Below are positions 7,633 through 43,339 of a stretch of 64,000 bases of DNA, one piece after another. The notes under the pieces are model-generated. The model ran no database searches, had not been told where the DNA came from, and saw only the letters and a program-made list of their open reading frames with translations. The position numbers were made by a program, and so were the translations under genes. Origin of the DNA: Candidatus Woesearchaeota archaeon (GTDB lineage Archaea > Nanobdellota > Nanobdellia > Woesearchaeales > GW2011-AR9); the NCBI GenBank assembly GCA_016214025.1, contig JACRPH010000003.1, forward strand, positions 1,814-65,813, given 5' to 3'. The number at the start of each line of letters is the position of its first letter. Position 1 is the first letter of the stretch.

Positions 7633-7690
7633 CTACTTTTTTGTTGGAAAAACTCAAAATGGTCGTGCCAAAACTCGAAAAGCTTATATA

Positions 7691-7726: not shown

Positions 7727-7744
7727 ATCAAAGGTTAAAGTAAA

Positions 7745-13434: not shown

Positions 13435-13467
13435 AAATAATGAACAGAATTTCAAAAATAGCAGCAA

Positions 13468-13563
13468 CTATACTCGATGACATAAATTTTTATACAAAAG
13501 AGTATGTCATCTCCTAATAAGTAAGTGACATTTTGTACAAAAACTAATGTCACTTACTATATT
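13468..13563 (+). promoter_or_regulatory. Repeat element R copy 1: 12-bp inverted repeat next to a TATA-like box, upstream of the Bro-N gene
   Basis: 'agtaagtgacat' (13520-13531) and 'atgtcacttact' (13547-13558), followed by 'atatttatgg'. The ~96-bp element recurs at 16142-16237. Confidence 0.6.
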
Positions 13564-29037: not shown

Positions 29038-30827
29038 TATCTAAGTATTTGTTTAGTATTATTTTGGCAGTAATATTATTGTTTTTGTTAACTTCTTGTT
29101 CTAAAGAAATAACTCCCCCCAAACAGGTTCTTTGTGAGGGTTATAAAAATAATCTTATCAGAGAACAGTGTTGGATTAGGTTAAGTATGGTAAAATCAGA
29201 TTTGACTTATTGTGATAAAATCTCCTTTCCAGAATATAAAGAGGGCTGTTATCGAGATTATTTACTGAAATCTCCTGCTGAAAATATTGACCTTTCCTTC
29301 TGTGAAAAGTTCATCCTTTCCGAAAATAAAGATACTTGTTTATTAAATTATGCAGTATATAAAAAGAATCTGGAGAGTTGTAATAAAATTCAAAGCCAGA
29401 GCCTGAAAGATTCTTGTACAATGGCAACAAGCTTCATTAATGGCGGTGTTGCTAATTGTGATGCTTTGGACTTTAAAGACGATTGCTATATGTTTGTTGC
29501 TGCGGGAGAAAAAGATTCTTCTTTATGTGAAAAAATTAAAGATGAAAGTGGAAAGGATGTCTGTTATTTACGGGTAGCCTATGTTACTCACGATGATTCT
29601 CTTTGCGACAAAATTCAAGATAAAGATGCCGACTATATCCACTCCGACCAATGTTATAATTCTGTTGCTCTGGCTAAAAAAGACGTTAAAGTGTGTGATA
29701 AGATTAAAGGCTTTAATATGTCATGCTATCAGAATATTGCTATAGCTACAGAAGATCCTCTCATTTGTGAGTTAATCGGTGTTTCAATAGTTTCTATGGA
29801 TGATACTGGTATGGAAATAGATATTAGTAAAGATGAATGTTTTAATTCTCTTGCACTTTTAATTCCCGATGCTTCTCTTTGCGGGAAGGTTAAAGAGAGT
29901 TATACTCGATCTCGTTGTTATTACGATATTGCTATCTCTACTGATGATGCGGGCCTCTGTGATTTGATTTTAAATGATTTGAAAAGTAGTTGCCATACGA
30001 CTCTAGCTGCGTATAAAGAATCCTGTGAATCTCTAACCTCGCCGGAGGATAAAGACGGATGTTATTACCAAATTGCTGAATATAGTGTCAATGCTAATTT
30101 TTGTGGGAATATTCAAAATGAAATTACCCAAAGTAGTTGTTACTCGGCTATTGCTCATACTTTAAATGATTCTTCTCTTTGTGAAAGTATTCCTAATCAA
30201 GAACAAAAGGGAGAATGTTATGCTTCATTTGGTGCAATTACTGGTACTCTGGAAATTTGTGAAAAAATAAAAAGTCAAAATGAAAAAGATAGGTGTTATA
30301 GAAACGTAGGGGTAACCATCGGAAATCTTTCTTTATGTGACTTTGGAGGGGATTCTTATGATAAACAGATGTGTTACGAATCTTTAGCCAAGAAGAATAA
30401 CAATCCTGCTGGCTGTGCTAAAATTGAAGATAATATAGGTGCTAAAGACCTCTGTTTTAATGATGTAGCAACAGCAACTAACTCTACGATTATTTGTAAT
30501 CAAATTAGTGATTCTGAACTAACCGAGTCTTGTTATTATTATGTGGGCTTGAACACCAAAGATCCTTCAGTATGTGCCAAAATTAAAACACAATGGTACT
30601 ATCGGAATGAGTGTTACCAAAGTGCAGCCATTGCTAAAATAGACGTTTCTTTATGCGAAAAGATACAAGAAACGGAAAATGACCAATATGTAATTACCAC
30701 TAAAGATGCTTGTTATCAAGAGATTGCTGCCAAACTAAAAGATTCAACCCTTTGTGAAAAAGCACATTCTTCAGAAGCAAAAGAAAATTGTCTTAATCTC
30801 GTTAAGCTAAGTTCACCAAACAGTTAA
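29034..30827 (+). CDS. Lipobox-bearing protein built of ~17 Cys-pair repeats (597 aa)
   Basis: 'LLFLLTSCSKE' is lipobox-like. It contains repeated units of the type 'D.CY..(V/I)A......D..LC(E/D)KI'. The start overlaps the upstream stop as ATGA. Confidence 0.6.
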   Translation: MISKYLFSIILAVILLFLLTSCSKEITPPKQVLCEGYKNNLIREQCWIRLSMVKSDLTYCDKISFPEYKEGCYRDYLLKSPAENIDLSFCEKFILSENKDTCLLNYAVYKKNLESCNKIQSQSLKDSCTMATSFINGGVANCDALDFKDDCYMFVAAGEKDSSLCEKIKDESGKDVCYLRVAYVTHDDSLCDKIQDKDADYIHSDQCYNSVALAKKDVKVCDKIKGFNMSCYQNIAIATEDPLICELIGVSIVSMDDTGMEIDISKDECFNSLALLIPDASLCGKVKESYTRSRCYYDIAISTDDAGLCDLILNDLKSSCHTTLAAYKESCESLTSPEDKDGCYYQIAEYSVNANFCGNIQNEITQSSCYSAIAHTLNDSSLCESIPNQEQKGECYASFGAITGTLEICEKIKSQNEKDRCYRNVGVTIGNLSLCDFGGDSYDKQMCYESLAKKNNNPAGCAKIEDNIGAKDLCFNDVATATNSTIICNQISDSELTESCYYYVGLNTKDPSVCAKIKTQWYYRNECYQSAAIAKIDVSLCEKIQETENDQYVITTKDACYQEIAAKLKDSTLCEKAHSSEAKENCLNLVKLSSPNS

Positions 30828-30856
30828 ATCTGTACCACAAAAGAGGAAAAACCATT

Positions 30857-31441
30857 ATGAACAAAAAAGCCATGGGCGTAGGACAAGTGTTCATCTATAT
30901 CGTAGCTGCCATCTCGTTTGCATTGATAATGATTTTCGGATACAAAGCCATTAACAGTTTCTTACAGAGCGGAGAGCAGGTGCAGTTAGTACAGTTTAAA
31001 ACGGATTTGGAAAGCTCCATTAAGAAAGTTTATACTGAATATGGCTCAGTACGGGTGGAAAAGTATCGTATTCCGGGAAACTTTGAACAGATATGTTTGG
31101 TGAATATGGAATATCCAGCGACTCCAGAGGAAATTGATGATCTTTGTAAAGAGAATGTTTACGCTTGCAAAGTGTGGGAAGATGCAGTTGCTGCTCAGAA
31201 ATTATCTGAAGCTGACCCAGCCAACTATCCCAAAGACGGCTACGACAGTGTAGATGAGAATGTATTTCTAACACCAATAACTGAAGGCTTGACTCAACTT
31301 AAAGTGTATCGAATTAGTATCGATCAAGATGCCGATGAAGTAGAAGAGGGTTTCTTGTGCGAACCCATCAAAAAAGGCTCATTCTCATTAGTTCTAGAAG
31401 GGAAAGGCGATCACACACAAATTTATCAAAAAACCAATTGA
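30857..31441 (+). CDS. Class III signal peptide (type IV pilin-like) protein
   Basis: N-terminus 'MNKKAMGVGQVFIYIVAAISFALIMIFGY'. Confidence 0.55.
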   Translation: MNKKAMGVGQVFIYIVAAISFALIMIFGYKAINSFLQSGEQVQLVQFKTDLESSIKKVYTEYGSVRVEKYRIPGNFEQICLVNMEYPATPEEIDDLCKENVYACKVWEDAVAAQKLSEADPANYPKDGYDSVDENVFLTPITEGLTQLKVYRISIDQDADEVEEGFLCEPIKKGSFSLVLEGKGDHTQIYQKTN

Positions 31442-31443
31442 AC

Positions 31444-32595
31444 ATGATTTCATCCAAACGCGCCCAGCTTGAAGTTACATTTAATTGGGTGTATGTGCTG
31501 ATCGCAGGAGCAGTAATCCTGTTATTCTTCGCTGGAATTGTAGTAAAACAAAAAGCTGCTTCCGAAGATAATTTAAGCCGGATGGCAATGAACATCATGG
31601 ATAAGATATTTGCCGGAGCCCGAGCGGCTGAAAAAACTAAAGATTTTGTGGATATAAGCGGATTAGCAGATTATACCTTTTACTTTGACTGTGATAATGA
31701 AGTCAGCACTTACGGGCTGAAAGGCTATGCTAATCCCAAAGAAGACGAAGTGCACGCTATTTTTGCACCATTAGAACTACAAGGGACACGGATGATTCTA
31801 TGGAGTTTACCTTACAAACTTCCTTACAAAACAATGGATTTTTTGTTTATTACTACGGATAAAACCAAGTATTTCTTCGTTGGGCAGGATGAGTTTGTAG
31901 AAGAATTCTTAAACGCTACTCAAGATAATACCGATAAGAGGAAAAGCATCAGCGCCGAAGCGGTTATTGATTTAGAAGATATTACTCCCGGAAAGACGTT
32001 CCAAATAAGAATTGTGGATGTAGAAGGGAAAATTCAACCTAAAGCCCTTTTACCTCCGCCGCTTTTGGATAAATTAAAAGGCTACGGCGACAATAAAGTA
32101 ACTGCAGTTTCTTTTACCGGAACCAATCAGGTTAATTTCTTCCAGAAAGAAGATGATCATTGGAAGCAGCTGAATTCCAATCCGGTTCAAATTGTCTCGC
32201 TGGGAGGAGAGCGTGATGCCGCTAAATATGCAGCTGTTTTTGCGGGAAATGACAAAGTGTACGAATGCAACATGAAGAAAGCATTTAGGCGATTAGAATT
32301 AGTTAATGAAGTTTATGGGGGGGTGGAGATAGTTAGCTTAAAGCCAGGTGGAAAACTAGGCGAAATTGCTGCTTATTACCAAGCTCATCCTGAATTGGGA
32401 TTAACCGGCCAATGCCAGAGTTATTTGAGTGAAGCTGAGGAAAATGTAATGGTAAGTATGCAGATGCATCAGTTAAAGACAAAAATGTGTAAATTAGAAT
32501 ACACCAAATGCGTCGAATTAATTGATTCCGCCGATAAACTAAAAAAAGCTAATACCAACTTGGCTGAAAAAGGAGATTGTATCCCACTATACTAA
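31444..32595 (+). CDS. Class III signal peptide (pilin-like) protein, 383 aa
   Basis: N-terminus from ATG 31444 is 'MISSKRAQLEVTFNWVYVLIAGAVILLFFAGIV'. The ORF-track start at 31357 overlaps the upstream gene and is unlikely. Confidence 0.55.
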   Translation: MISSKRAQLEVTFNWVYVLIAGAVILLFFAGIVVKQKAASEDNLSRMAMNIMDKIFAGARAAEKTKDFVDISGLADYTFYFDCDNEVSTYGLKGYANPKEDEVHAIFAPLELQGTRMILWSLPYKLPYKTMDFLFITTDKTKYFFVGQDEFVEEFLNATQDNTDKRKSISAEAVIDLEDITPGKTFQIRIVDVEGKIQPKALLPPPLLDKLKGYGDNKVTAVSFTGTNQVNFFQKEDDHWKQLNSNPVQIVSLGGERDAAKYAAVFAGNDKVYECNMKKAFRRLELVNEVYGGVEIVSLKPGGKLGEIAAYYQAHPELGLTGQCQSYLSEAEENVMVSMQMHQLKTKMCKLEYTKCVELIDSADKLKKANTNLAEKGDCIPLY

Positions 32596-32596
32596 A

Positions 32597-33124
32597 ATGG
32601 CACTTCGTTCCAAAAAAGCACAAATGCACATCACCGAAACTATTGGAGTGCTATTCATCTTCTTTATCTTGGTAGCATTTGGGTTGATATTTTATTACAA
32701 GTACACTGAGCAGGCGATAGAACAAGAGCACTACCAGCAGATTGACGACAGGGCAGTTAAACTGGCATTAGAGGTATTTACGCTTCCAGAATTAGCCTGT
32801 ACTCGAGGAGACGCAGAGTTAGAAGATTATTGTGTGGATATGGCTAAAGTGCGGCATCTTAATGAGACATTTGATATTCATGTGAAGGATTACTATTTCA
32901 AGCTGTTTGGATATGCGAAGATAAGAGTAGTGCAATTATATCCTCCTGATGGACAAAATTATACTTTGTATGATAAAAAAATGCCACTTAATGAAACTTC
33001 CACACCCGATTTAGGAGTCACTTGGTTTGTGGTAGCATTAAAAGATGAAGTTACTGATATGGAGAAAACTCCGTACAGTTTTGGATATATTGAAGTGGGT
33101 GTATATTCCCTGCCGTGGGAATGA
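32597..33124 (+). CDS. Class III signal peptide (pilin-like) protein
   Basis: N-terminus 'MALRSKKAQMHITETIGVLFIFFILVAFGLIF'. Confidence 0.55.
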   Translation: MALRSKKAQMHITETIGVLFIFFILVAFGLIFYYKYTEQAIEQEHYQQIDDRAVKLALEVFTLPELACTRGDAELEDYCVDMAKVRHLNETFDIHVKDYYFKLFGYAKIRVVQLYPPDGQNYTLYDKKMPLNETSTPDLGVTWFVVALKDEVTDMEKTPYSFGYIEVGVYSLPWE

Positions 33125-33133
33125 AAAAGAGAA

Positions 33134-33688
33134 ATGAACAAAAAAGCACAGATGGAAATGATTGGGATTGTGGTAATTGTAATTCTCGTAACGTTAGGAA
33201 TGCTGTTCATGGCGCAGTTTGCATTTAAAGAAGACAAAACTAAGAAAGTGTTTACGGCGCGAGGATTGGCTGCGAGCACGTTAGGTGCATTGTTTAAGAC
33301 TACGGTAACCGATCCTGGTTGTGTGCAAGAATTTGGCGCAGCGGCTTTGCCACAAATTGGGGAGGAGTTGTTAGAAGATTGCGCCTTGAACTATGAAACT
33401 AAAGACGAGCCAAATGGATATTCTTTGTATACTTGTGGTGGGATGCATACGTGTGAGTTTGTGGAAGGAAGCGCTACTTCTTTATTAGGAGACACTTTAG
33501 GCAAATGGGGCAAGAAGTATCATTTTACAGCTAAATTGCTGGTTCCGGGCGGGAAAACAAATTTTATTAATCTGACTGAAGTTAAGAACAGTGGCTGCCC
33601 CAAAACTCAGGGAGACAGAGACTGCTCCCAGCAGCCTTTATCTACCGAAGCTGGGCAGGTGCTGGCAGAATTGTGCATTTGCGGGTGA
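33134..33688 (+). CDS. Class III signal peptide (pilin-like) protein, Cys-containing
   Basis: N-terminus 'MNKKAQMEMIGIVVIVILVTLGMLF'. Its last 26+ nt are duplicated at 38273-38298. Confidence 0.55.
   Translation: MNKKAQMEMIGIVVIVILVTLGMLFMAQFAFKEDKTKKVFTARGLAASTLGALFKTTVTDPGCVQEFGAAALPQIGEELLEDCALNYETKDEPNGYSLYTCGGMHTCEFVEGSATSLLGDTLGKWGKKYHFTAKLLVPGGKTNFINLTEVKNSGCPKTQGDRDCSQQPLSTEAGQVLAELCICG
33656..33681 (+). repeat. Left copy of the 26-bp direct repeat flanking the radical-SAM island
   Basis: 'caggtgctggcagaattgtgcatttg' is identical to 38273-38298. Weaker similarity extends about 20 nt upstream. Confidence 0.85.
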
Positions 33689-33693
33689 AAGCG

Positions 33694-34311
33694 TTAATTA
33701 AGTGTTGAATTCAATAAATTCAGATGTTCCGTACAATTTATTTTATGAAAAGTCTTTTTATTACCTTCTATCTGCACCATAGAAAGAGCAGTATTCTTTT
33801 TAGGAAGATAATTTTTATAGAACTCAATGGGTTTATCATGTAAATATGTTAATAAGCACGACAAAGGCCCACCATGACCGACTATTAATACACAGGACTC
33901 TTTATACTCTTTCATGACTTTTTCTAAAAAGGGAATTACTCTCTCCCAAACCTCTATTAGGGACTCCCCTTCTTCTGGTTTGAATATATAATAGGGTATG
34001 TTTAGTTTATCTAAGTCTTCATTTCTTTTTAAGTTTGATTTGCCTTCGTAAATCCCTTTAGACTGTTCTCTCAAATCTTTAGTTAAAATTGGACTAATAT
34101 TTTTATGAAAGGTTAAAATTTCCATTAAAGTGTCTTTTGCCCTATCTAGGTCGCTCGAAAAGGCATAATCAATTTTTTTTCCTTTGAGAAATAAAGCTAT
34201 TTCCCGTGCTTGTTGAATCCCCGTGGGAGTTAGTTGAGAATTTAAATGACCCTGACAGATCCCCGTAATATTTTCAAATGTTTCACCATGCCTGACTAAA
34301 ATTAATTCCAT
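33694..34311 (-). CDS. Histidine phosphatase (phosphoglycerate mutase superfamily)
   Basis: 'MELILVRHGETFEN...QG' RHG motif, 'SSDLDRAKDT', and second His in 'LIVGHGGPL'. Confidence 0.75.
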   Translation of the reverse strand: MELILVRHGETFENITGICQGHLNSQLTPTGIQQAREIALFLKGKKIDYAFSSDLDRAKDTLMEILTFHKNISPILTKDLREQSKGIYEGKSNLKRNEDLDKLNIPYYIFKPEEGESLIEVWERVIPFLEKVMKEYKESCVLIVGHGGPLSCLLTYLHDKPIEFYKNYLPKKNTALSMVQIEGNKKTFHKINCTEHLNLLNSTLN

Positions 34312-34377
34312 AACGCTAACTTATTTTGAGAGAGTATAAAAAGTTTTTGATGGGGTTTTTATAATATTCGGCCCTCT

Positions 34378-34995
34378 TTATTTTAAATGGGAGGTATTAT
34401 TCCAATCAAGAATAGTAAATTTTTCATCATTATATTTTATTCTTGTAATCGAACTTTTAGCTGGTTTGAGCAGGTCATAATCCTCAAACGGTTGATTGTT
34501 TAAATATAAACCAAAGGCTGTGATTATACCCCCATGCGTTACAATTAATATTTGTTCCTGGGGTAATGTGGGGATGTAATTAAAAAAAAAATCAACTGCT
34601 CTTTGCTGTAATTCTACTGTCGATTCTCCATTTTCTGGCCGGTATAAGTACAGCGGGAGGGATTGTTGAATTAAAACTTCATGAACTAACTCTCGGGGTT
34701 TTCCACAATAAATCCCACTTCGTTTTGCTCTAAGCCCATTGGTTATAATTAATTCTAGGTTTGGATGATATTTTGCTAGTTCTTTGCAGGTCACAAGGCA
34801 ACGATTTAACGGGCTAGACAAAGCTAGTTCAAATGATTCATCTCTTAGGGCATGTCCTGTTAACTCTATCTCTAATTTTCCTTGCTCAGAGATATCCCCT
34901 TCGATTTCCCACCCTTGATGAATACCGTTAATATTTTCAATAGTTGTCGCATGTACCACAACCACAAGATTCTTGGATTTATGTTTAGGTTTCAC
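34378..34995 (-). CDS. Histidine phosphatase-fold protein with a degenerate RHG motif
   Basis: 'VVVVHATTIEN' replaces RHG (Arg lost, His kept). 'SSPLNRC' and 'IVTHGGII' are retained. Confidence 0.55.
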   Translation of the reverse strand: MKPKHKSKNLVVVVHATTIENINGIHQGWEIEGDISEQGKLEIELTGHALRDESFELALSSPLNRCLVTCKELAKYHPNLELIITNGLRAKRSGIYCGKPRELVHEVLIQQSLPLYLYRPENGESTVELQQRAVDFFFNYIPTLPQEQILIVTHGGIITAFGLYLNNQPFEDYDLLKPAKSSITRIKYNDEKFTILDWNNTSHLK

Positions 34996-36040
34996 TTTCT
35001 TTAATATTTCCTAAAATTGAATACAGTTTTTTCTTATTTATCACGGAAAGATTTCTTATTATCCAATAAGGGTTATTAGTCCTATCAATTGATTTTGAAA
35101 ATTCAACATCCTTTCGAAGTTTACTTAATATCTTTTTGAAGGGTATGAGAACCAAATTTGTGTGGGCCGGACTATTGGTAACAAATTGTGTTATTCTTTC
35201 GTAACTAACTCTCTCGCGGTTTATATTTCCTATAACTTCTGTTTCTATGCCATAAAATAAAACGTCACCATTAGGGTTAATAGTGATGTCTAACCCGGGT
35301 TTTTCCCCGGCACAGATATAACCCAATGTAAAATCTTTCCTATACTTTTTTTCTAAACAATCAACATACGTGCCTATATCATACTTATCTTTTATTCCGT
35401 AGTTTGTGGGGTTTACAATACTTTGATAACAAATAAAAAACGATTTATTGTTAATTATCAGCTTAGTTTTAATAGCATTAAGATTCTCTAGCTTAAAACT
35501 TAAATTAGCTTTTTCTAATTCTTTAGAAACATATTTTTCTACAAAATCTTTATCTGTCGTGATGGAACGAAACATTAATTCTAGATGAGAGGGCTCTTCT
35601 TTTAAAAAATAATTTATTAACCATAAGAAATGGTTATGAGTGATTTTTGAAAGATGGTGTCGGTCTAAACTAAAACGTAATCTCAGAAAAGAACCATTAT
35701 TCTTAACTATTTCTTCCATATTTTTGATAAAAATCATAAACTTTTTCTGCGGGATATTTCCACTAGTAATCAATTCAAATTGTTTATTCCTGCCACAAAT
35801 TTTTAAGATATCAAATACAGCATTTTGATTAAATATTGGGTCGCCTTGACCACTAATGCCGATTAGTTTACATTTTGAAGTCAACTCTTGGAGATTATCT
35901 TTTACAATTCCCCGAACAATTAGATTATCTCTTTTTCTTTTATTGTTACACATGCAAAAATCACAATTAACATTGCAAATATCTGTAACTAGTATGTATA
36001 TCAAATGATTATCCTGTGAAAAAATATTTTTTGATTTCAT
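34985..36040 (-). CDS. Radical SAM protein
   Basis: 'LVTDICNVNCDFCMC' is CxxxCxxC. 'GISGQGDP' is a SAM-binding glycine motif. The C-terminal 'INPNGDVLFYG...IGNI' looks like a Cys-less SPASM/twitch remnant. Confidence 0.7.
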   Translation of the reverse strand: MKSKNIFSQDNHLIYILVTDICNVNCDFCMCNNKRKRDNLIVRGIVKDNLQELTSKCKLIGISGQGDPIFNQNAVFDILKICGRNKQFELITSGNIPQKKFMIFIKNMEEIVKNNGSFLRLRFSLDRHHLSKITHNHFLWLINYFLKEEPSHLELMFRSITTDKDFVEKYVSKELEKANLSFKLENLNAIKTKLIINNKSFFICYQSIVNPTNYGIKDKYDIGTYVDCLEKKYRKDFTLGYICAGEKPGLDITINPNGDVLFYGIETEVIGNINRERVSYERITQFVTNSPAHTNLVLIPFKKILSKLRKDVEFSKSIDRTNNPYWIIRNLSVINKKKLYSILGNIKESET

Positions 36041-36041
36041 T

Positions 36042-37025
36042 TTATTTGAAAACCAAATATGTATGATGAGTCATAGGACAAAGTTTACACCAGCCCGATC
36101 CCCCTTTACGGATTTTTTTCCAATTATCTGAATCCCACAATTCTTTTAGTGATTTTTTGTGTAGATTTCCAACAATTGGCTTATGAAAATACTCAATTGC
36201 ATTACAAGGGTGGATGTCGCCGTTGGCTAATATCAAAGCTAGACTTTTTCTATTTTTACAGTTGATTGAATTTGAACAGTTATAAATCCCTCGTGCTAAA
36301 TCAGAATATGAGACGCCCCATTTAAATAAATGGTTTAGATTCTTCAGGTTTTTTTGGAGTATAGTCCCTTTAAGTTCTTTTTTCAAATAATCTTGGCAAT
36401 TAGGAACGACTGTTTCTTTAAAATGAGTGATATCCTCTTTTGAGGGATGGTTGATATTATTGTAGCCTTCCAAATACGAAATAAACATTTTTTTTGGATT
36501 TTGTTTATGTGCTAATTTAATAAACTCCAAAAAATAAGCCATATTATCAACAGTTAATATCGTTTGTAAGTTTAACTCTATACTTGTTTTATGGATATTG
36601 TTCATCGCCAATAATGCTTTAGCAAAAGCGCCATCGTAAGACCGAATAGAATCATGTTTTGCTGGCGAAGCAGAATATAATGAAATTGTACAGGAATCTA
36701 ATTTTGCACTATTCAGATTTTGGACATATTTTTTATTTGCTAAAAGAATTCCGTTCGTATTTAAGTTTACTTTTAGACCCAAAGATTTAGCGTGTTTAAT
36801 TAAGTCTATAAGTCCACCATATAATGTTGGCTCACCACCACTAATGTGGACACTTTTGAGACCCAACTCCTTTCCCGTTTTTAATATTTTTTTCCAGTCT
36901 TTAAGAGACAATAACTTTTTTCCCTCATTCTTTTCATAAAGCTCCAACCGCGATTCACAAAAGTTACAACTACAATTACATCCTAAATTGGGTTTTATAA
37001 TCAAATATTTTAATTTTTCATTCAT
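36042..37025 (-). CDS. Radical SAM / SPASM-domain protein
   Basis: 'LGCNCSCNFCESR' is CxxxCxxC. 'HISGGEPTL' is also present. The C-terminal 'NGDIHPC...VGNL...SLKELW...WCKLCPM' is SPASM-like. ATG 37025 is preferred over 37064 because it avoids a 47-nt overlap. Confidence 0.75.
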   Translation of the reverse strand: MNEKLKYLIIKPNLGCNCSCNFCESRLELYEKNEGKKLLSLKDWKKILKTGKELGLKSVHISGGEPTLYGGLIDLIKHAKSLGLKVNLNTNGILLANKKYVQNLNSAKLDSCTISLYSASPAKHDSIRSYDGAFAKALLAMNNIHKTSIELNLQTILTVDNMAYFLEFIKLAHKQNPKKMFISYLEGYNNINHPSKEDITHFKETVVPNCQDYLKKELKGTILQKNLKNLNHLFKWGVSYSDLARGIYNCSNSINCKNRKSLALILANGDIHPCNAIEYFHKPIVGNLHKKSLKELWDSDNWKKIRKGGSGWCKLCPMTHHTYLVFK

Positions 37026-38178
37026 TTTCTTTACCAAATAATGTTTCGTAATATTGGGTAGCAATTGTTTCGGGAGACAAATATTTTTTAATACTGCTTA
37101 AAGATGGTTTCTCATTCTTTTTATTGTTTTGCCAGATGAAATATCTTTCTCGTAATTTATTAATAAACTTTTTTTTGTTACCTAACTTTATTAAAGTGAA
37201 ATATTTTGGGTCATAGTATTTTAATACAATTCTGGTTCCGGGGACATCATAGCAAATGATATGCATTCCAGAACAACAAGCTTCAAGTATTGAGTTACAA
37301 AATCCTTCTCGATAGGAGGTAAAAAGAAATATATCTGCTATTTTATATATCATTGGCATGTCTTTTTCGTTAAATGGTCCGATGAATCTAATGTTTTGTA
37401 TGTTCTTATTTTCAACAAGTTTTTTGATTTTTTTTAAATATTTTTTACCCAAATAACAATCGATACCAACAATGAATAAAGTCCCTTTAATTTTTGACCT
37501 GTTCCAAATATCAATTAAATCTTCTAAGTGTTTAATTGGGTCTAATCTTCCCGTCCAGAGTGCAATGAATTCTTTTTCTTTAACACCTAATCTTTTTTGA
37601 AAAACCAATCCCTTTTTCTGCGAATCATTGGCAAATCTCTGGAGGTCTAATAAGTTTGGGATGTAACGGCAAGAAATATTATATTTATTACACCCATTTA
37701 TTTCTTTTTTGATTTCCGGGTTGATGGCAATTATTTTTTTAACATTACTAATCTTCTTTAAGCGAGCCTCCCTGCCATAGATAACATCAAAGAAATCTTT
37801 ACTTGTAGCTATCCTAAGGAAAATTTCTTTTCCAAAATTAGATAACTCTTTGATTAAGTTAAGTTGATCATCAATCAGAGTTTCATATTCTAAACCAATA
37901 ATTAATATTTTTCTGATGTTTAAATTCTTACTTAATTTGGTAGCTTTCTTCCAAAAAGTTTTTCTTTTCCCGCCAATTCTTATTATTTTAATTCCCCCAT
38001 CTAATTTTTGCTTAACTGTTTCCCTTCCTTCCTCTGGTCCAGGTACGATAAAAGTAATATCCCCATTGTAAAATTTTTTAAGAGACCTGTACAATCTATA
38101 AGTAAAATTTTGTAAACCCCCGTATGTGGGAAAGAAATACTGCGGGATTATTATCAACTCATTCTTTTGTTTTATCAT
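37018..38178 (-). CDS. GT4-family (GT-B) glycosyltransferase
   Basis: N-terminus 'IIPQYFFPTYGGLQNF' and C-terminus 'FLFTSYREGFCNSILEACCSGMHIICYDVPG' (EX7E region). Confidence 0.75.
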   Translation of the reverse strand: MIKQKNELIIIPQYFFPTYGGLQNFTYRLYRSLKKFYNGDITFIVPGPEEGRETVKQKLDGGIKIIRIGGKRKTFWKKATKLSKNLNIRKILIIGLEYETLIDDQLNLIKELSNFGKEIFLRIATSKDFFDVIYGREARLKKISNVKKIIAINPEIKKEINGCNKYNISCRYIPNLLDLQRFANDSQKKGLVFQKRLGVKEKEFIALWTGRLDPIKHLEDLIDIWNRSKIKGTLFIVGIDCYLGKKYLKKIKKLVENKNIQNIRFIGPFNEKDMPMIYKIADIFLFTSYREGFCNSILEACCSGMHIICYDVPGTRIVLKYYDPKYFTLIKLGNKKKFINKLRERYFIWQNNKKNEKPSLSSIKKYLSPETIATQYYETLFGKENE

Positions 38179-38272
38179 TTAGTTAGTTGATTTATTCGAC
38201 AATATTTAAGTTTTTCTATCAGAAAGTGGTGATTAACCGGTTTATGGTGGGAACCAGTTTATTCTTTGGGGC

Positions 38273-38298
38273 CAGGTGCTGGCAGAATTGTGCATTTG
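38273..38298 (+). repeat. Right copy of the 26-bp direct repeat
   Basis: Identical to 33656-33681; non-coding here. Confidence 0.85.
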
Positions 38299-38392
38299 TG
38301 GTTAAAAACTATCGTAAGGTTTATATAGAAACTTTCTTTTGTCATTCTTTAAATAATAGTCATAAAGCTAAATCAAAAGAGGTGCATGGAAA

Positions 38393-38734
38393 ATGGGTTC
38401 TAAGAAAGGGATGGAGATGTCCATAAGCGTAATTATCGTAGCCGTACTAGCTTTAGTTATATTAGTAGTGTTGCTGGCTATTTTTATGGGGAAAATAACT
38501 GGGTTTGAGAAAGGAGTAAGCAAAGAGGCCCAGACCGAATTAATTACGATGAAGATAACCTATGGTAATTGCCGTCCTTTGGCTAGTGCAGAAACCGCCT
38601 TTACCACCGATTTAAGCAAAGCGGAAACCGATGATGCCAAAGAATTTATCAAAGCCAATTTTAAAGACGCTATTAGCTCGTGCAAGACCAACACTGAAAA
38701 AGCCAACTGTGCCGGGAATTGCGTGTGGGGTTAA
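38393..38734 (+). CDS. Small pilin-like protein with a Cys-containing C-terminus (113 aa)
   Basis: N-terminus 'MGSKKGMEMSISVIIVAVLALVILVVLLAIF'. C-terminus 'SSCKTNTEKANCAGNCVWG'. TATA-like 'tttatata' at 38320-38327. Confidence 0.55.
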   Translation: MGSKKGMEMSISVIIVAVLALVILVVLLAIFMGKITGFEKGVSKEAQTELITMKITYGNCRPLASAETAFTTDLSKAETDDAKEFIKANFKDAISSCKTNTEKANCAGNCVWG

Positions 38735-38763
38735 GCAGGATAAGCTAAATGAGGCGAATTAAC

Positions 38764-39072
38764 ATGAATAAAAAAGCTGACGCCAATATGTGGTGGATAA
38801 TCATTGGAGCAGTGATAGCTTTAGTGGTGCTGATAATCCTGATGGTGATATTTACCACGAAGACCGGAAAATTGGAAGGGGGGTTGTCTGAATGCGGGGG
38901 TAAGAGTGGTGTGTGTGTGTCCGGGGGCATCTGTCCAAAGTCTACGTTAGAATCATCAGCATTTACTTGTAGCAGTTCTTCTGCTATCTGCTGTATTGGC
39001 TCGCCCAAGAAAAGCCCGTGTAATTCTGTTGATGAATATGAAGGCGAAGGCGGTTATTGCTTTGGAAAGTGA
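38764..39072 (+). CDS. Small pilin-like Cys-rich protein (102 aa; alternative start 38749)
   Basis: N-terminus 'MNKKADANMWWIIIGAVIALVVLIILMVIF'. C-terminus has 9 Cys ('CGGKSGVCVSGGICP...AICCIG'). Confidence 0.55.
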   Translation: MNKKADANMWWIIIGAVIALVVLIILMVIFTTKTGKLEGGLSECGGKSGVCVSGGICPKSTLESSAFTCSSSSAICCIGSPKKSPCNSVDEYEGEGGYCFGK

Positions 39073-39074
39073 GA

Positions 39075-39206
39075 ATGCTTAACAAAAAAGGCGTGGATTG
39101 GAGCAGTCCGGAAACACTGGTGACGATTTTGCTAATCGTTTTATTGGCTTTAATTTTCTTTTTTGTATTCATTCGCGGGAAAATAGGAGGAATACTTAAA
39201 ATATGA
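39075..39206 (+). CDS. Micro-ORF (43 aa) with a pilin-like N-terminus; not in the supplied ORF track
   Basis: Hand translation 'MLNKKGVDWSSPETLVTILLIVLLALIFFFVFIRGKIGGILKI*'. Its TGA overlaps the next ATG as ATGA (39203-39206). Confidence 0.45.
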   Translation: MLNKKGVDWSSPETLVTILLIVLLALIFFFVFIRGKIGGILKI

Positions 39207-39367
39207 ATAAAAAAGCGGGTTTATGGAAAAGCAAAAAAGGGATGGAAATGTGGATGTTGGTGCTGATGATATTAGCAATTATATTATTATTATTTGTATT
39301 AGGATGGTATTATGGATTGAGTAAAAGCGGTGGAAGTCTGCTGGACAAGGTGAGTAATCTGCTATGA
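39203..39367 (+). CDS. Micro-ORF (54 aa) with a pilin-like N-terminus; not in the supplied ORF track
   Basis: Hand translation 'MNKKAGLWKSKKGMEMWMLVLMILAIILLLFVLGWYYGLSKSGGSLLDKVSNLL*'. ATGA overlap with the next gene at 39364-39367. Confidence 0.45.
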   Translation: MNKKAGLWKSKKGMEMWMLVLMILAIILLLFVLGWYYGLSKSGGSLLDKVSNLL

Positions 39368-40137
39368 ATATGGCTTGGAATAAAATTGGTACTATTGTCA
39401 TTGCGGTAGTAGTGATGCTTATATTGTGGGCAATTTATTTTCCAAGTGGAGGAATGTTTGACAATCTAAAAGAACTAGTTAAAGGAGTAGCAGAATATGC
39501 CCCGAACGTTTCTATTGGAATGAACGAGTTGAACGCTTCCGGGGTAGCCCTTCCCGGAGAACAAGGCGCAGAAGTTAGTGCATTAAAATCAGCCATAGAA
39601 GGTATGCTTTCCAGCAACAAAACCAACTGCTTTGGCAGCTTTGGCGGGTTTGAGAGTGAACTTGGAAACAGTGACAAATCAACTAATATTAATATCTATT
39701 ACAACAATGATCCTCAATCTATGAAGATAGTTATATCTAATCAAAATGGGCAGGTATATAAAATATTCAACTTTAATAATACGCACCCGTGTGTGATTGC
39801 CGGGAGAAGTAATGAAGCAAAGAATTTCTATGCTCATTATATTGACGGAGAGCAATTAGTAAGTCCTTATTCTAGCACCGTCCAAGGCTTAACTATTTTT
39901 TATCAGAAAGAATGGACGAGCTATAACGGAAATACGATAAGAGTTATGGGTTGGCCAGAAGATGGCCCAGTTAATGATGAGGGAAATAATTTTGACAATA
40001 GTGGATTACTGTTTAAAGGGGGGGGCAATGAAATTTGTTTCTTTCCAACTAATAAACATATTAATGCTGACGATGATGGAATAGAAGATGATTACGTTAA
40101 ACAGCTAAAAGAGGATGGAGCTAATCTTTGCTCATAA
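39364..40137 (+). CDS. N-terminally anchored secreted protein (257 aa)
   Basis: N-terminus 'MNMAWNKIGTIVIAVVVMLILWAIYF'. Confidence 0.5.
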   Translation: MNMAWNKIGTIVIAVVVMLILWAIYFPSGGMFDNLKELVKGVAEYAPNVSIGMNELNASGVALPGEQGAEVSALKSAIEGMLSSNKTNCFGSFGGFESELGNSDKSTNINIYYNNDPQSMKIVISNQNGQVYKIFNFNNTHPCVIAGRSNEAKNFYAHYIDGEQLVSPYSSTVQGLTIFYQKEWTSYNGNTIRVMGWPEDGPVNDEGNNFDNSGLLFKGGGNEICFFPTNKHINADDDGIEDDYVKQLKEDGANLCS

Positions 40138-40141
40138 TAAC

Positions 40142-41128
40142 ATGTTATTCAAACTCTCCAAAAAAGGCATGGAAGCGGGATTTTTAGTAGTCTTAATCAT
40201 AACTATTGCTTCATTCATACTTATTGCTGGCGTAGTAATGCGGTTTATGTCTTCGGCTGATGATAAGGAAGCAGAAATTTTGTGCCATGATAGTGTTTTA
40301 ATGCGGGCGCAAAGTGTAGTAAATATTGACACTACTTTAGCTGATGCAGAAATTAAAATAGTTCCAACCATGTGTAAAACCATCGACAAAAAGATTAAGG
40401 GCGATAGAGAAGAGCTGAAACGCCAGATAGCAGATAAAATGGCTCGCTGCTGGTGGATGTTTGGTGAAGGAAAGTATGAAGAAATACTGGCTGGCTCTAA
40501 TGTTGATGTGCTTCCTTCGGTGTTTGGGACGGAAAATCAGGAAAATCAGTGTTTTAACTGCTACAATTTAATGATTGATGAAGATAAGATTGAGGGAGGA
40601 TCTATTACTGGAACGGAGATGAACGAGTTTATGTACAACGAAAAATATTCCCGAACTAATGCTACCTACATGGAATACATCCAAAGTTATGGTGGGCCGG
40701 GAAGAGTGGTATTTACTGCAGCCGATATTTCACCCAGAGAAGCGTATGCTCTGTCTTTCCTGCCCAAAAATAAAGAATATGACGAGAAGTCTTTTTGGTC
40801 GGGGGTAGGAAAAGTAGTTATAGGTGGGGCGGTAGTAATTGGGGTCGCTGCCGGAGCGGTTTGTATTGTTAGTACTGCTGGAATATGCACTGCTGTCGTT
40901 GGACCTTTAGCTGCGGTGGCCACGGGAACAACAGGAATCGGGCTGACTATACTGGCCGCCCCCACAACCGTCGCAGTAGGAACTGCCGCCGCTGCAGTAA
41001 TAGCTACTACCGGCTATTGGGATATCATGGATGGAATGTACGCTGAGCGGGAGGTTAGTTCAGTTTATGTGGGATATTTGGCTGTAGGAGAGAAAATGTG
41101 CGGCTCTGGTGACATCGCAGGAGAATAA
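40142..41128 (+). CDS. Pilin-like N-terminus plus a Gly/Ala/Val-rich C-terminal membrane region (328 aa)
   Basis: From ATG 40142: 'MLFKLSKKGMEAGFLVVLIITIASFILIAGVV'. C-terminus 'VVIGGAVVIGVAAGAVCIVSTAGICTAVVGPLAAVATGTTGIGLTILAAP'. Confidence 0.5.
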   Translation: MLFKLSKKGMEAGFLVVLIITIASFILIAGVVMRFMSSADDKEAEILCHDSVLMRAQSVVNIDTTLADAEIKIVPTMCKTIDKKIKGDREELKRQIADKMARCWWMFGEGKYEEILAGSNVDVLPSVFGTENQENQCFNCYNLMIDEDKIEGGSITGTEMNEFMYNEKYSRTNATYMEYIQSYGGPGRVVFTAADISPREAYALSFLPKNKEYDEKSFWSGVGKVVIGGAVVIGVAAGAVCIVSTAGICTAVVGPLAAVATGTTGIGLTILAAPTTVAVGTAAAAVIATTGYWDIMDGMYAEREVSSVYVGYLAVGEKMCGSGDIAGE

Positions 41129-41158
41129 ATAATAAAAAATAAAAAGGTGAAACATAAC

Positions 41159-41467
41159 ATGAAACTTTCAACCAAAGCCGATGCCAACATGTGGTGGATA
41201 ATTGCCATTGCTATTTTAGTTTTACTAGTGGTAATCCTTATACTAATGTGGTTCCGAGGAAGCGGCGATAGGGCTTTTGGAGAGGTCGGTAAGAAGATTG
41301 GCAACTTAGAAGATTGCGATAATGATAACGTCGCTAATATGTGGGATAAATGCCCATGTGCTCCTGCCGGAAACAATCCTGAATTTGAAGGCTGTCCTGA
41401 TTCAATTAAAAAAGATGCCCCTAAAGAGACCCCTGAGTTTACCAATAAAGATTGTTGCAGTAAGTAA
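41159..41467 (+). CDS. Small pilin-like Cys-rich protein (102 aa)
   Basis: From ATG 41159 (SD-like 'aggtga' upstream): 'MKLSTKADANMWWIIAIAILVLLVVILILMWF'. 'DCDNDNVANMWDKCPCAPAG' resembles the TSP3-like repeat in the giant protein. Confidence 0.55.
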   Translation: MKLSTKADANMWWIIAIAILVLLVVILILMWFRGSGDRAFGEVGKKIGNLEDCDNDNVANMWDKCPCAPAGNNPEFEGCPDSIKKDAPKETPEFTNKDCCSK

Positions 41468-41493
41468 AAATAAAATAATTAAAAAGATGCCCC

Positions 41494-42156
41494 ATGAACA
41501 AAAAAGCTATAATGGTTTCGTTTTTAACTACGCTTATTCTAGCTTTAATCATCTTCGTTCCGGCGTGCATGGGGGTGTCCAAGTTTTTCCGCTTGAGCGA
41601 CCAGGCTAAAGATAATTTTAACAATTTTGTAAAAGAGATCCAATCGCTGGCAAAAGATGGAAAAGAAGGCGAGAATCGCAATGATGTATTGATATTAGAC
41701 CAAGCCACCGCCGCAGTTTATTTTGAGCCGAATTCAGAAGAGGTTAAAGTAGAAGTAAATGCAGATTTTTGGTCGTGGAACTTTCCTACCGATTACACCA
41801 TTTATATTAAACCTCCGGGAAAGTGCGAAAAGGGAAAAGGGTGCTTATGTTTAATTCGCAAAGCCAAGTTTGATGCTACGTGGTGGGAACTGGCCCCTAG
41901 TAAAGTAATAATAACCGAGGATACCTCCACCCCTGCTATTTGTAAAACAGTTGACACTAAATTGATATTAAGCAAATGTGGAATTGGTGTTCCTACTAAA
42001 GTTAAGTCTTACACTTGCTCCGGCGGGTTTATGATAGAAAGGCAACTAGCTAAAGATTCCAGTTGGATTACCGTTTCTTACTACGAAGCCAATCGCAGAA
42101 CCTTCTTCGTTCTAACTAAAGCCGGAGATTCCATCAAGCTTACCCCCCAAACATGA
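41494..42156 (+). CDS. Class III signal peptide (pilin-like) protein
   Basis: N-terminus 'MNKKAIMVSFLTTLILALIIFVPAC'. Confidence 0.5.
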   Translation: MNKKAIMVSFLTTLILALIIFVPACMGVSKFFRLSDQAKDNFNNFVKEIQSLAKDGKEGENRNDVLILDQATAAVYFEPNSEEVKVEVNADFWSWNFPTDYTIYIKPPGKCEKGKGCLCLIRKAKFDATWWELAPSKVIITEDTSTPAICKTVDTKLILSKCGIGVPTKVKSYTCSGGFMIERQLAKDSSWITVSYYEANRRTFFVLTKAGDSIKLTPQT

Positions 42157-42557: not shown

Positions 42558-42562
42558 TAAAA

Positions 42563-43338: not shown

Positions 43339-43339
43339 C

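What the first reader, a model, noticed from the sequence alone, without database searches (positions are those of the whole stretch)
33656..38298. Opposite-strand radical-SAM / glycosyltransferase / phosphatase island inserted into the pilin-like locus, flanked by a 26-bp direct repeat
Seen in sequence:
- 'caggtgctggcagaattgtgcatttg' forms the last codons of pilin-like gene 33134..33688 and recurs non-coding at 38273-38298.
- Between the copies lie five minus-strand genes: GT4 glycosyltransferase, radical SAM with SPASM-like Cys motifs, a second radical SAM with a Cys-less SPASM remnant, a histidine phosphatase with RHG changed to VHA, and a canonical histidine phosphatase.
- Hand counts of single 60-nt lines give 17, 20, 23 and 23 G+C inside the island, against 22 and 31 in the flanking pilin genes. 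This is only suggestive.
- Just after the right repeat there is a 20-nt remnant of a giant-protein-type gene tail (see the next finding), so the insertion probably replaced or truncated a gene.

Inference: this is an acquired cassette that may modify the surrounding surface proteins or their glycans. The five-gene combination does not match a pathway I can name.
Basis: partly seen in the sequence, partly recalled or inferred. Interest (0 to 1): 0.75.

Follow-up and report, generated by a model that had tools for sequence, protein, structure and literature searches.

The report
Ophion-related gene cassette in archaeal pilin locus
A five-gene enzyme cassette really was inserted at the end of a pilin-like gene in a Woesearchaeota (DPANN) archaeon, and its core enzyme is related to the radical-SAM protein of the recently described bacterial anti-phage system Ophion, so it probably makes a modified nucleoside- or sugar-like compound rather than decorating the pili.

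Summary
An exact 26-mer (33656-81 and 38273-98) brackets five minus-strand genes: GT4, radical SAM/SPASM, a second radical SAM, and two histidine phosphatases. Their G+C is 0.31 against 0.39 for the rest of the window.

Four related Woesearchaeota contigs have the predicted empty site. A deeper outgroup also lacks the island.

The repeat is not an att core. A fifth relative (L009) carries the same island at the same site, flanked by a 205-bp duplication of the pilin gene's 3' end. The window's 38-nt right copy is the eroded remains of that duplication. Nothing was replaced or truncated.

The island is old: 83% nt identity between the two carriers, with purifying selection on all five genes. 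Carriers are not sister lineages, so either repeat-mediated loss or lateral spread has occurred.

The same cassette sits beside aEF-2 in another archaeon, between a different 28-nt repeat.

The Cys-less radical SAM is a full-length homologue of OpnA of the Ophion defence system (33% identity, E 6e-66). Ophion's PHP phosphatase is replaced here by histidine phosphatases, and its PRTase is absent; GT4 and a SPASM enzyme are present instead.

This is most likely a new archaeal variant of an Ophion-type small-molecule module. That function is inferred, not shown.

The parts
33134..33688 (+). Target gene: pilin-like protein (184 aa) with a class III signal peptide (MNKKA|QMEM + hydrophobic helix). 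It is still intact.
   Evidence: ORF. Motif scan finds 12 consecutive such genes at 30857-43338. 53 homologues, mostly Woesearchaeota. No Pfam family.
33491..33690 (+). Copy A: the 3' part of the pilin gene plus a few nt past the stop. This is the segment duplicated on the far side of the island in L009.
   Evidence: Window 33491-33681 matches both L009 copies: 82.8% to copy B and 78.5% to copy A. L009 A/B repeat is 187/205 identical.
33653..33690 (+). Left copy of the 38-nt direct repeat (exact 26-mer at 33656-33681). It encodes GQVLAELCICG*.
33694..34311 (-). HP1: canonical histidine phosphatase (RHG present), 205 aa.
   Evidence: Pfam His_Phos_1 E 6e-45. Best NCBIfam hit is CobC alpha-ribazole phosphatase at 90.8 bits, below the 162.9 cut-off. 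Orthologues in L009 and L016; inverted in L016.
34378..34995 (-). HP2: histidine phosphatase variant with VHA instead of RHG. The other catalytic residues are kept. It lies immediately downstream of rSAM2 in the window, L009 and L016; in L015 and L034/39 a second SPASM gene lies between them.
   Evidence: Pfam E 2e-28. V/S-H-A is conserved in L009, L016 and L015 orthologues. Most conserved island gene: codon position 2 identity 0.95. Only about 5 relatives in 5.8e9 clusters.
34985..36040 (-). rSAM2: OpnA-family radical SAM (CNVNCDFC). It has a SPASM/twitch-like C-terminal fold without conserved cysteines.
   Evidence: 33% identity over 330 aa to P. aeruginosa OpnA/OphA, E 6e-66. AF2 pLDDT 89. 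Foldseek best match is EpeE, TM about 0.6. Family has 65 representatives at E<=1e-30 out of 1.84e9.
36042..37025 (-). rSAM1: radical SAM with SPASM domain. The likely start is ATG at 37025; the ORF is open to 37064.
   Evidence: Pfam Radical_SAM E 3e-19 and SPASM E 3e-10. No NCBIfam equivalog reached; best are PqqE, AhbD and MoaA. PDB matches: SuiB, BlsE, PqqE, MoaA. Start as called in L001 and L016.
37018..38178 (-). GT4 glycosyltransferase (386 aa), first gene of the operon.
   Evidence: Pfam Glycos_transf_1 E 6e-23. PDB matches: TreT, sucrose-phosphate synthase, BshA. The L016 orthologue passes Pfam GT4-conflict (37.4 bits against cut-off 26), but the window protein does not (12 bits).
38179..38269 (-). 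Island-borne non-coding leader/promoter region of the GT4 operon. Its outer part is the decayed 5' end of copy B.
   Evidence: 38191-38234 is conserved with L009 (AATATTTAAGTTTTTCTATCARAAAGTGGTGATTAA). Identity falls to 0.43 over 38191-38269.
38270..38307 (+). Copy B remnant: right copy of the 38-nt repeat (exact 26-mer at 38273-38298), non-coding here.
   Evidence: It aligns with the end of the 205-bp copy B of L009. The upstream ATG is out of frame.
38308..38392 (+). Native intergenic region with TATA-like box and SD of the 113-aa gene. It is not part of the island.
   Evidence: Collinear with island-free L003, L004 and L007. The 20-mer at 38376-95 is present in the relatives.
38393..38734 (+). 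Downstream neighbour: 113-aa pilin-like gene. It directly follows the pilin gene in island-free relatives.

Best explanation
Shown:
- A self-contained five-gene operon (GT4, rSAM/SPASM, OpnA-family rSAM, variant His-phosphatase, canonical His-phosphatase) was inserted into a conserved type-IV-pilin-like locus of a Woesearchaeota genome.
- The insertion lies immediately 3' of a pilin-like gene. It duplicated about the last 200 bp of that gene, so the gene stayed intact.
- The 26/38-nt repeat in the window is the eroded right-hand copy of that duplication.
- The island contains no recombinase.
- A second, independent insertion of the same cassette elsewhere is bracketed by an unrelated 28-nt target duplication.

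Inferred about integration and history:
- Integration was duplicative and homology- or replication-based, not att-site-specific.
- The long direct repeats allow scar-free loss. Together with lateral spread, this gives the patchy presence among close relatives.

Inferred about function:
- The cassette is an archaeal variant of the Ophion type of radical-SAM module.
- The conserved core is an OpnA-family radical SAM enzyme plus a small-molecule phosphomonoesterase: HisJ-type PHP in bacteria, histidine phosphatase here.
- The sugar-transferring step is done by a GT4 in place of Ophion's PRTase. A second SPASM radical-SAM enzyme adds a tailoring step.
- The product would be a modified glycoside or nucleoside-like small molecule made in the cytoplasm. 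By analogy with Ophion, it is probably used against viruses.
For: Insertion:
- Empty sites in L003, L004 and L007/L008 are collinear with the 33681|38299 join.
- Outgroup L042/43 has the same locus without the island.
- G+C and GC3 are deviant.
- The island is the only minus-strand block in a 25-kb plus-strand region.

Duplication:
- L009 has the same island at the same site, with a 205-bp repeat at 91% identity.
- The window's copy B aligns to the end of that repeat.

Second insertion:
- L016-19 carry the cassette next to aEF-2, between 28-nt repeats with 1 mismatch. There is no other copy in 10 kb.

Functional genes:
- Codon position 3 is the least conserved in all five genes between the window and L009.
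- The VHA variant is conserved across orthologues.

Ophion link:
- Window rSAM2 against OpnA: 33% identity over 330 aa, E 6e-66.
- The bacterial relatives form rSAM-PHP-PRTase_3 triads in 14 of 15 loci.
- Their rSAM is 51% and their PHP 50% identical to OphA and OphB.
- Ophion was reported as an anti-jumbo-phage system (bioRxiv 10.1101/2025.09.30.679545).
- The Ophion-type PHP scores above the HisJ-family cut-off, 121 against 90 bits, so it is a phosphomonoesterase type.
- GT9-like and GT32-like genes follow the triad in 8 or more bacterial loci.
- The L016 GT4 passes Pfam 'GT4-conflict'.
- An IS1-like element disrupts rSAM2 in another strain.
Against: - No PRTase and no PHP are present. In Ophion the PRTase is reported to be essential.
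- PADLOC gives only generic viperin/radical-SAM cross-hits.
- The Ophion chemistry itself is unknown and rests on one preprint.
- Foldseek places rSAM2 nearest a peptide epimerase (EpeE) and the sugar enzyme DesII, not viperin.
- No viral contig and no neighbouring defence gene ties the archaeal cassette to conflict.
- The window's own GT4 does not reach the GT4-conflict cut-off.
- The 28-nt repeat in L016 includes a BRE/TATA-like promoter, so it could be two similar promoters rather than a duplication.
Confidence: 0.6

Rival explanations
1. First reader's reading. The cassette modifies the neighbouring pilin-like surface proteins or their glycans, for example by glycosylation followed by radical tailoring.
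For: - It is embedded in a block of 12 pilin-like genes.
- It includes a GT4.
- Bacterial relatives often carry GT9-like and GT32-like genes.
- Low G+C is typical of variable surface-glycan loci.
Against: - The same cassette lies next to aEF-2 in L016-19 and next to unrelated genes in L015.
- Relatives with the same pilin locus do without it.
- No family hit indicates a membrane, flippase, polyprenyl-phosphate or oligosaccharyltransferase function, and all five match soluble-enzyme families. Transmembrane segments and signal peptides were not predicted.
Confidence: 0.2
2. The 26-mer is the core of an att site, and the island is an integrative element moved by a site-specific recombinase acting in trans or since lost.
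For: - There is a perfect 26-nt core with mismatches only outside it, and the target gene's 3' end is regenerated.
- Empty sites exist in relatives.
Against: - No integrase lies in or next to the island.
- In L009 the repeat is 205 bp, not a short core.
- The independent insertion in L016 has an unrelated 28-nt repeat.
- No tRNA gene is present.
Confidence: 0.1
3. RiPP-type peptide maturation. The two radical SAM enzymes cross-link or epimerise a Cys-rich peptide such as the pilin C-terminal tail, or the 75-aa ORF formed by copy B in L009.
For: - rSAM1's best PDB match is the peptide maturase SuiB.
- rSAM2's best structural match is the peptide epimerase EpeE.
- Copy B in L009 is an intact ORF with an ATG and three Cys in its tail.
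Against: - Copy B is reduced to 11 out-of-frame-initiated codons in the window, while the enzymes stay under purifying selection.
- No candidate precursor lies next to the cassette in L016 or L015, or in bacterial Ophion loci.
- Phosphatases are not expected in RiPP pathways.
Confidence: 0.05
4. An ordinary accessory metabolic pathway with no role in conflict. For example, a compatible solute or cofactor-like glycoside made by a GT4 plus phosphatase pair, as in sucrose-phosphate or glucosyl-phosphoglycerate synthase/phosphatase systems, and then tailored by radical chemistry.
For: - GT4's nearest solved relatives are TreT, sucrose-phosphate synthase and BshA.
- The synthase-then-phosphatase logic is well established for such solutes (established knowledge).
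- HP1 and HP2 best resemble CobC/PspA-type small-molecule phosphatases.
Against: - It is extremely rare and patchy: about 5 archaeal lineages in 5.8e9 protein clusters.
- It shows indel polymorphism and IS disruption.
- Its only characterised relative is a defence system.
Confidence: 0.15

Closest known systems
Ophion anti-jumbo-phage defence system (OpnA radical SAM, OpnB PHP, OpnC PRTase), bioRxiv 10.1101/2025.09.30.679545
   Same: - rSAM2 is a full-length OpnA homologue (E 6e-66). It shares the family's invariant motifs: CxxxCxFCM, SGxGxP, FRSI, NNPYW.
- It is translationally coupled to a phosphomonoesterase gene.
- The unit is compact, low in G+C and patchily distributed.
   Different: - There is no PHP. 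Two histidine-phosphatase-fold enzymes, an unrelated fold, take its place.
- There is no PRTase. A GT4 and a SPASM radical SAM are present instead.
- The host is a DPANN archaeon, not Gammaproteobacteria.
- No defence phenotype has been tested.
Prokaryotic viperins (pVip)
   Same: Both are radical SAM enzymes proposed to make antiviral nucleotide analogues. rSAM1 cross-hits the pVip models (PADLOC 72 bits).
   Different: - The NCBIfam viperin model scores 63 bits against a cut-off of 180.
- rSAM1 has a SPASM domain.
- rSAM2 scores only about 15 bits.
- Foldseek did not return viperin structures among the top matches.
Genomic islands that integrate into the 3' end of a gene and regenerate it (tRNA/tmRNA-type integrative elements)
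   Same: A direct repeat of the target's 3' end flanks the insert, the target gene stays intact, and empty sites are found in relatives.
   Different: - No integrase and no tRNA target.
- The repeat is 205 bp of a protein-coding gene.
- A second insertion uses a different target and repeat.
GT4 synthase plus phosphatase pairs of glycoside biosynthesis (sucrose-phosphate synthase/phosphatase, MshA, BshA, GpgS/GpgP)
   Same: A retaining GT4 with the EX7E-type C-terminal motif sits next to small-molecule phosphatases. PDB and NCBIfam cross-hits go to SPS, TreT, BshA and MshA.
   Different: No equivalog threshold is reached. Two radical SAM enzymes are part of the operon, which none of those pathways has.

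Membership tests
Ophion defence system | OpnA-family radical SAM protein | tested here: met
   BLASTP of window rSAM2 against P. aeruginosa OphA from Table S1 of the preprint: 33% identity over 330 aa, E 6e-66. The authors' own HMM cut-off (500 bits) could not be applied.
Ophion defence system | PHP-domain protein (OpnB) encoded next to the rSAM | tested here: not met
   No PHP domain in any island protein. The adjacent genes are two His_Phos_1 proteins. Bacterial relatives do have the PHP, 50% identical to OphB.
Ophion defence system | PRTase (OpnC), reported as essential for protection | tested here: not met
   No PRTase_3 or other PRTase hit in the island or in L009, L015 or L016.
Ophion defence system | Protection against (jumbo) phage | not testable with these tools
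   Phenotype is known only for the P. aeruginosa system.
Radical SAM / SPASM enzymes (rSAM1) | CxxxCxxC cluster motif plus a Cys-rich SPASM domain | tested here: met
   Pfam Radical_SAM E 3e-19 and SPASM E 3e-10. Motifs CNCSCNFC and C..C...CxxC are present and conserved in orthologues.
SPASM/twitch radical SAM (rSAM2) | Auxiliary-cluster cysteines in the C-terminal domain | tested here: not met
   No invariant Cys after C29 across 19 family members. The fold still resembles EpeE, SkfB and DesII.
Histidine phosphatase superfamily, branch 1 | RHG motif with catalytic His, second Arg, Glu and His | tested here: met
   HP1 has RHGET, SSDLDRA, GES and HGG.
Histidine phosphatase superfamily, branch 1 (HP2) | Arg of the RHG motif | tested here: not met
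   HP2 has VHA, and SHA in L015. This is conserved in orthologues, while the His, NRC, GES and THGG residues are kept. The Pfam domain match is still strong, E 2e-28.
Prokaryotic viperin | Score above the curated family threshold | tested here: not met
   NCBIfam viperin_w_prok scores 63 bits against a cut-off of 180 for rSAM1. rSAM2 gives no match.
Site-specific integrative element | Element-encoded integrase and a conserved att core | tested here: not met
   No integrase among the island ORFs. Repeats at the two independent sites are unrelated in sequence.
Site-specific integrative element | Direct repeats at both ends and an empty site in relatives | tested here: met
Archaeal type IV pilin-like proteins (target gene) | Class III signal peptide: K/R-G/A cleavage motif followed by a hydrophobic helix | tested here: met
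   MNKKA|QMEMIGIVVIVILVTLGMLF. Twelve neighbouring genes have the same motif. This is motif-level evidence only; there is no Pfam match.
Pfam GT4-conflict (PF20706) | Score above the gathering threshold (26 bits) | tested here: inconclusive
   Window GT4 scores 12 bits and L009 19.7 bits, both below threshold. The L016 orthologue scores 37.4 bits, above it.

The most novel reading that the evidence does not exclude
The island is the first archaeal (DPANN) member of an Ophion-type antiviral chemistry. In it, hexosyl transfer by a GT4 replaces phosphoribosyl transfer, and a histidine phosphatase replaces the PHP phosphatase. This would define 'OpnA-family radical SAM + phosphomonoesterase' as the true functional core and imply a new class of radical-SAM-made glyco-nucleoside-like antiviral compounds. 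The cassette would also spread without any recombinase of its own, by duplicative integration that leaves long target repeats.
Probability: 0.25. Interest if true: 0.8.

Novelty: new variant of a known kind. Interest (0 to 1): 0.55.

Why it matters
- Ophion was described only in 2025, and its chemistry is unknown.
- A natural variant keeps only the OpnA-type enzyme and a non-homologous phosphatase, and swaps the PRTase for a glycosyltransferase. This narrows which steps are essential and gives a second, independent system for working out the product.
- It would extend this enzyme family to DPANN archaea, whose defences against viruses are poorly known.
- The locus is also a clean natural example of presence/absence polymorphism in uncultivated archaea, with filled, empty, eroded and IS-disrupted states available for comparison.
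- It shows how a duplicated gene end keeps the target gene functional.

Tried and rejected
- Exact look-up of the window's 184-aa pilin protein found nothing. The 176-aa form did.
- The sequence search of PDB with rSAM2 gave no match. A structure prediction was needed.
- PADLOC gave only generic viperin cross-hits.
- Two scans of viral contigs, with the rSAM2 profile and with HP2, found nothing.
- Three literature searches on domain combinations or on Woesearchaeota returned nothing relevant. The fourth found the Ophion preprint.
- Homologue search with HP2 added no new contexts.
- The metagenome scan added only fragments, plus the IS-disrupted copy.
- Rejected, 'remnant of a giant-gene tail': the 20-mer is native to the 113-aa gene's start region.
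- Rejected, 'common intergenic motif': neither the 26-mer nor the flanking 24-mer recurs elsewhere in the window.
- Rejected, assembly chimera: an independent assembly agrees.
- Rejected, recent acquisition: the island is 17% diverged between the two carriers.
- Not resolved, single ancestral gain with losses versus later lateral spread:
  - Carriers are not sisters in the flank tree, 200/200 bootstraps.
  - Third-codon-position identity is higher in the island (0.67-0.75) than in the flanks (0.59).
  - The immediate flanks show no special affinity between the window and L009.

Full report
**1. Observation**

The 26-mer CAGGTGCTGGCAGAATTGTGCATTTG occurs exactly twice in the window, at 33656-33681 and 38273-38298. 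None of 100 dinucleotide-preserving shuffles gave a match. The similarity extends to 38 nt (33653-90 and 38270-307), with 34 of 38 positions identical. Read in the frame of the pilin-like gene, both copies encode GQVLAELCICG followed by a stop. All four differences are synonymous, including TGA versus TAA.

Five minus-strand ORFs lie between the copies.
- 33694-34311: His_Phos_1.
- 34378-34995: His_Phos_1 with VHA in place of RHG.
- 34985-36040: Radical_SAM only.
- 36042-37064: Radical_SAM + SPASM.
- 37018-38178: Glycos_transf_1.

None of them reaches an NCBIfam equivalog cut-off.

The composition is deviant. G+C is 0.311 in the island against 0.393 elsewhere. Three of the five genes are the lowest in the window. 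GC3 is 0.25-0.28 against 0.381 +/- 0.057 for 43 other genes, p = 6e-4.

An independent Logan assembly from run SRR12113407 covers window 31013-43688 with two mismatches. The junctions are therefore not an assembly artefact.

**2. Host and locus**

Homologues of the 184-aa protein are almost all from Woesearchaeota/Nanoarchaeota MAGs. An RPA-type gene lies downstream.

Twelve consecutive plus-strand genes between 30857 and 43338 start with a K/R-G/A motif followed by a hydrophobic helix. This is the archaeal class III (prepilin-like) signal. Almost nothing else in the window has it. 'Pilin-like locus' is therefore justified at motif level, although Pfam has no model for these proteins.

**3. 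Empty sites**

Four related contigs carry the same locus with the pilin gene followed, after about 100 bp, by the 113-aa gene and no island:
- L003 (88% protein identity).
- L004 (GCA_020053615.1).
- L007 (GCA_964542815.1).
- L008.

Joining window 33681 to 38299 gives a sequence collinear with these sites. A more distant, widespread relative (L042/L043, 53% identity) has the same conserved locus and also lacks the island. The island-free state is therefore ancestral for the locus, and the island is an insertion.

**4. What the repeat really is**

A fifth relative, L009 (GCA_053533595.1), carries the same five genes at the same site. It is collinear with window 30838-38247 at 81% nt identity. 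In L009 the right-hand repeat is not 26 or 38 nt. It is 205 nt, at 187/205 identity. It comprises the last ~190 nt of the pilin gene plus ~12 nt beyond the stop, and it forms an intact 75-aa ORF.

The window's right copy aligns with the end of this segment. The sequence just upstream of it aligns with the decayed beginning. The window has evidently lost about 165 bp of copy B. The 26-mer is thus the remnant of a duplication of the target gene's 3' end, made when the island went in. That duplication is why the pilin gene remained intact.

In L009 the last ~113 nt of the two copies differ at only 2 positions, while the first ~90 nt differ at 16. In the window the surviving 38 nt contain a perfect 26-nt core. 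This points to gene conversion between the copies (inference).

At 38376 it is the Shine-Dalgarno/start region of the 113-aa gene. It is present there in island-free relatives. No gene was truncated.

**5. Age and history**

The island is 82.9% identical between the window and L009. The 6 kb of upstream flank is 79.9% identical.

In all five genes the third codon position is the least conserved (0.67-0.75) and the second the most (0.88-0.95). All five, including the VHA phosphatase, are therefore under purifying selection.

A neighbour-joining tree of the flanks splits {window, L004, L007} from {L003, L005, L009} in 200 of 200 bootstraps. The two carriers are not sisters. Two scenarios fit:
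- The island entered before this group radiated and was lost two or three times, with a 205-bp direct repeat offering a scar-free route.
- It spread between lineages later.

Third-position identity is higher in the island than in the flanks (about 0.71 against 0.59), which leans towards later spread. AT-rich codon bias could contribute to that difference, and the immediate flanks show no special window-L009 affinity. I leave this open.

Two further observations bear on turnover:
- The contigs L005 and L006 both end 14 nt after the pilin gene. That is what a repeat or a polymorphism at that point would cause.
- In another strain (L038), rSAM2 at 89% nt identity is cut after about codon 275 by IS1-like ORFs.

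**6. The cassette elsewhere**

| Locus | Gene content | Context |
|---|---|---|
| L016-L019 | All five genes at 44-54% protein identity; HP1 inverted | Directly downstream of an aEF-2 gene, not in a pilin locus |
| L015/L037 | rSAM1, rSAM2, a further SPASM enzyme, HP2-type phosphatase | Among unrelated genes |
| L034/L039 | rSAM2 (cut by the contig end), a SPASM enzyme, HP2-type phosphatase | Short contigs |

In L016 the cassette is bracketed by a different 28-nt direct repeat, at 453-480 and 4930-4957 with 1 mismatch. There is no other copy in 10 kb. That repeat includes the BRE/TATA-like promoter of the downstream gene.

The two independent insertions have unrelated repeats of different length, and no recombinase gene is present. 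This argues against a site-specific att mechanism and for duplicative, homology- or replication-based integration (inference). The L016 repeat could also be two similar promoters.

In every genome the cassette is 4-9 points lower in G+C than its surroundings.

**7. Function**

rSAM2 belongs to a small, sharply delimited family:
- 19 clusters by the word-indexed search.
- 65 representatives at E <= 1e-30 among 1.84 billion.

Outside the Woesearchaeota the family occurs in diverse bacteria, in a conserved cassette of rSAM, PHP and PRTase_3 (14 of 15 loci). GT9-like and GT32-like glycosyltransferases often follow.

A 2025 preprint (bioRxiv 10.1101/2025.09.30.679545) describes exactly this triad as 'Ophion':
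- It is a three-gene system: OpnA rSAM, OpnB PHP and OpnC PRTase.
- It protects P. aeruginosa against jumbo phages.
- The rSAM and the PRTase are essential.
- The mechanism is only proposed, as nucleotide modification.

I compared sequences using the OphA and OphB sequences from the preprint's Table S1:

| Comparison | Result |
|---|---|
| Window rSAM2 vs OphA | 33% identity over 330 aa, E 6e-66 |
| Bacterial L011 rSAM vs OphA | 51% identity |
| Bacterial L011 PHP vs OphB | 50% identity |

The Ophion-type PHP scores above the HisJ-family histidinol-phosphatase cut-off, 121 against 90 bits. It is therefore a small-molecule phosphomonoesterase type, not the PolX exonuclease type.

The feature conserved across bacteria and archaea is thus an OpnA-family rSAM linked to a phosphomonoesterase, directly adjacent in the window, L009 and L016. 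That phosphomonoesterase is PHP in bacteria and histidine phosphatase in these archaea, a non-homologous replacement.

The archaeal cassette has no PRTase. It has a GT4 and a SPASM radical SAM instead. PRTase and GT4 both form a glycosidic bond from an activated sugar.

I therefore propose that the cassette keeps the same logic: sugar transfer, dephosphorylation and radical tailoring, yielding a cytoplasmic nucleoside- or glycoside-like product. By analogy, that product is probably antiviral. This is inference; no step has been shown.

Supporting hints are weak:
- The L016 GT4 passes Pfam 'GT4-conflict', but the window's does not.
- A distant, frameshifted rSAM2 homologue in another Woesearchaeote sits next to an ITP/XTPase-family gene.

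Contrary hints:
- The predicted structure of rSAM2 (pLDDT 89) is closest to the peptide epimerase EpeE, then DesII, SkfB and SpeY, and not to viperin.
- PADLOC recognises nothing specific.
- No viral contig carries the genes.

**8. Comparison and verdict**

The cassette is not a member of Ophion as defined, because two of the three defining genes are absent. It shares Ophion's signature enzyme and, I infer, its logic.

It is weakened because the cassette occurs in non-pilin contexts and encodes only proteins from soluble-enzyme families.

A RiPP role is unlikely. No precursor travels with the cassette, and copy B is decaying in the window.

Overall, this is a real, old, polymorphic insertion whose flanking repeat is a decayed gene-end duplication. 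It carries a new archaeal variant of a recently described kind of radical-SAM module.

Noticed in passing
window 29034-30827: A 597-aa Cys-rich repeat protein gene has G+C 0.338 and GC3 0.242, the lowest in the window. It is absent from L009, L003, L004 and L007, where the giant gene is followed directly by the 194/204-aa pilin-like gene. This is a second lineage-specific insertion in the same locus.
   Followed up: partly
window 29017-29036 and 38376-38395: An exact 20-mer, AAAGAGGTGCATGGAAAATG, is shared by the end of the giant gene and the start region of the 113-aa gene. Both copies look native: they are SD + ATG contexts, and relatives have similar sequence at both places. The exact identity may reflect a small conversion.
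   Followed up: yes
L038 (Ga0209541_10187275) 1-1839: An rSAM2 gene 89% identical in nt to the window's is truncated after about codon 275. IS1-like ORFs follow it (InsA zinc-ribbon, E 6e-5, below the Pfam cut-off). The island is being inactivated in another strain.
   Followed up: partly
L009 (reverse-complemented) 13251-13478: Copy B of the pilin 3' end is an intact 75-aa ORF with its own ATG: MEEHSKSPSNSTLGKWGKK...AESCIC. Whether it is expressed is unknown.
   Followed up: no
L005 and L006, contig ends: Two independent contigs from the sister lineage of L009 both stop 14 nt after the pilin gene. That would be expected if a repeat or a presence/absence polymorphism breaks assembly there.
   Followed up: no
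L020-L032, L011 (bacterial Ophion loci): In at least 8 of 15 loci the rSAM-PHP-PRTase triad is followed by GT9-like (heptosyltransferase-like) and/or GT32-like glycosyltransferase genes. These are fused in Vibrio. No glycosyltransferase appears in the preprint's main text (0 occurrences of the word), which describes a three-gene system.
   Followed up: partly
L035 (Woesearchaeota UBA10207) 6656-9995: A distant rSAM2 homologue, split by a frameshift, lies beside an NTPase_I-T (ITP/XTPase family) gene, a methyltransferase and PCNA.
   Followed up: no
window 33680-33688 vs relatives: The window's pilin gene ends CICG*, whereas all five relatives end CIC*. The extra Gly codon and the new stop seem to come from a ~12-nt deletion in the former intergenic region. 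Both repeat copies share this feature.
   Followed up: partly
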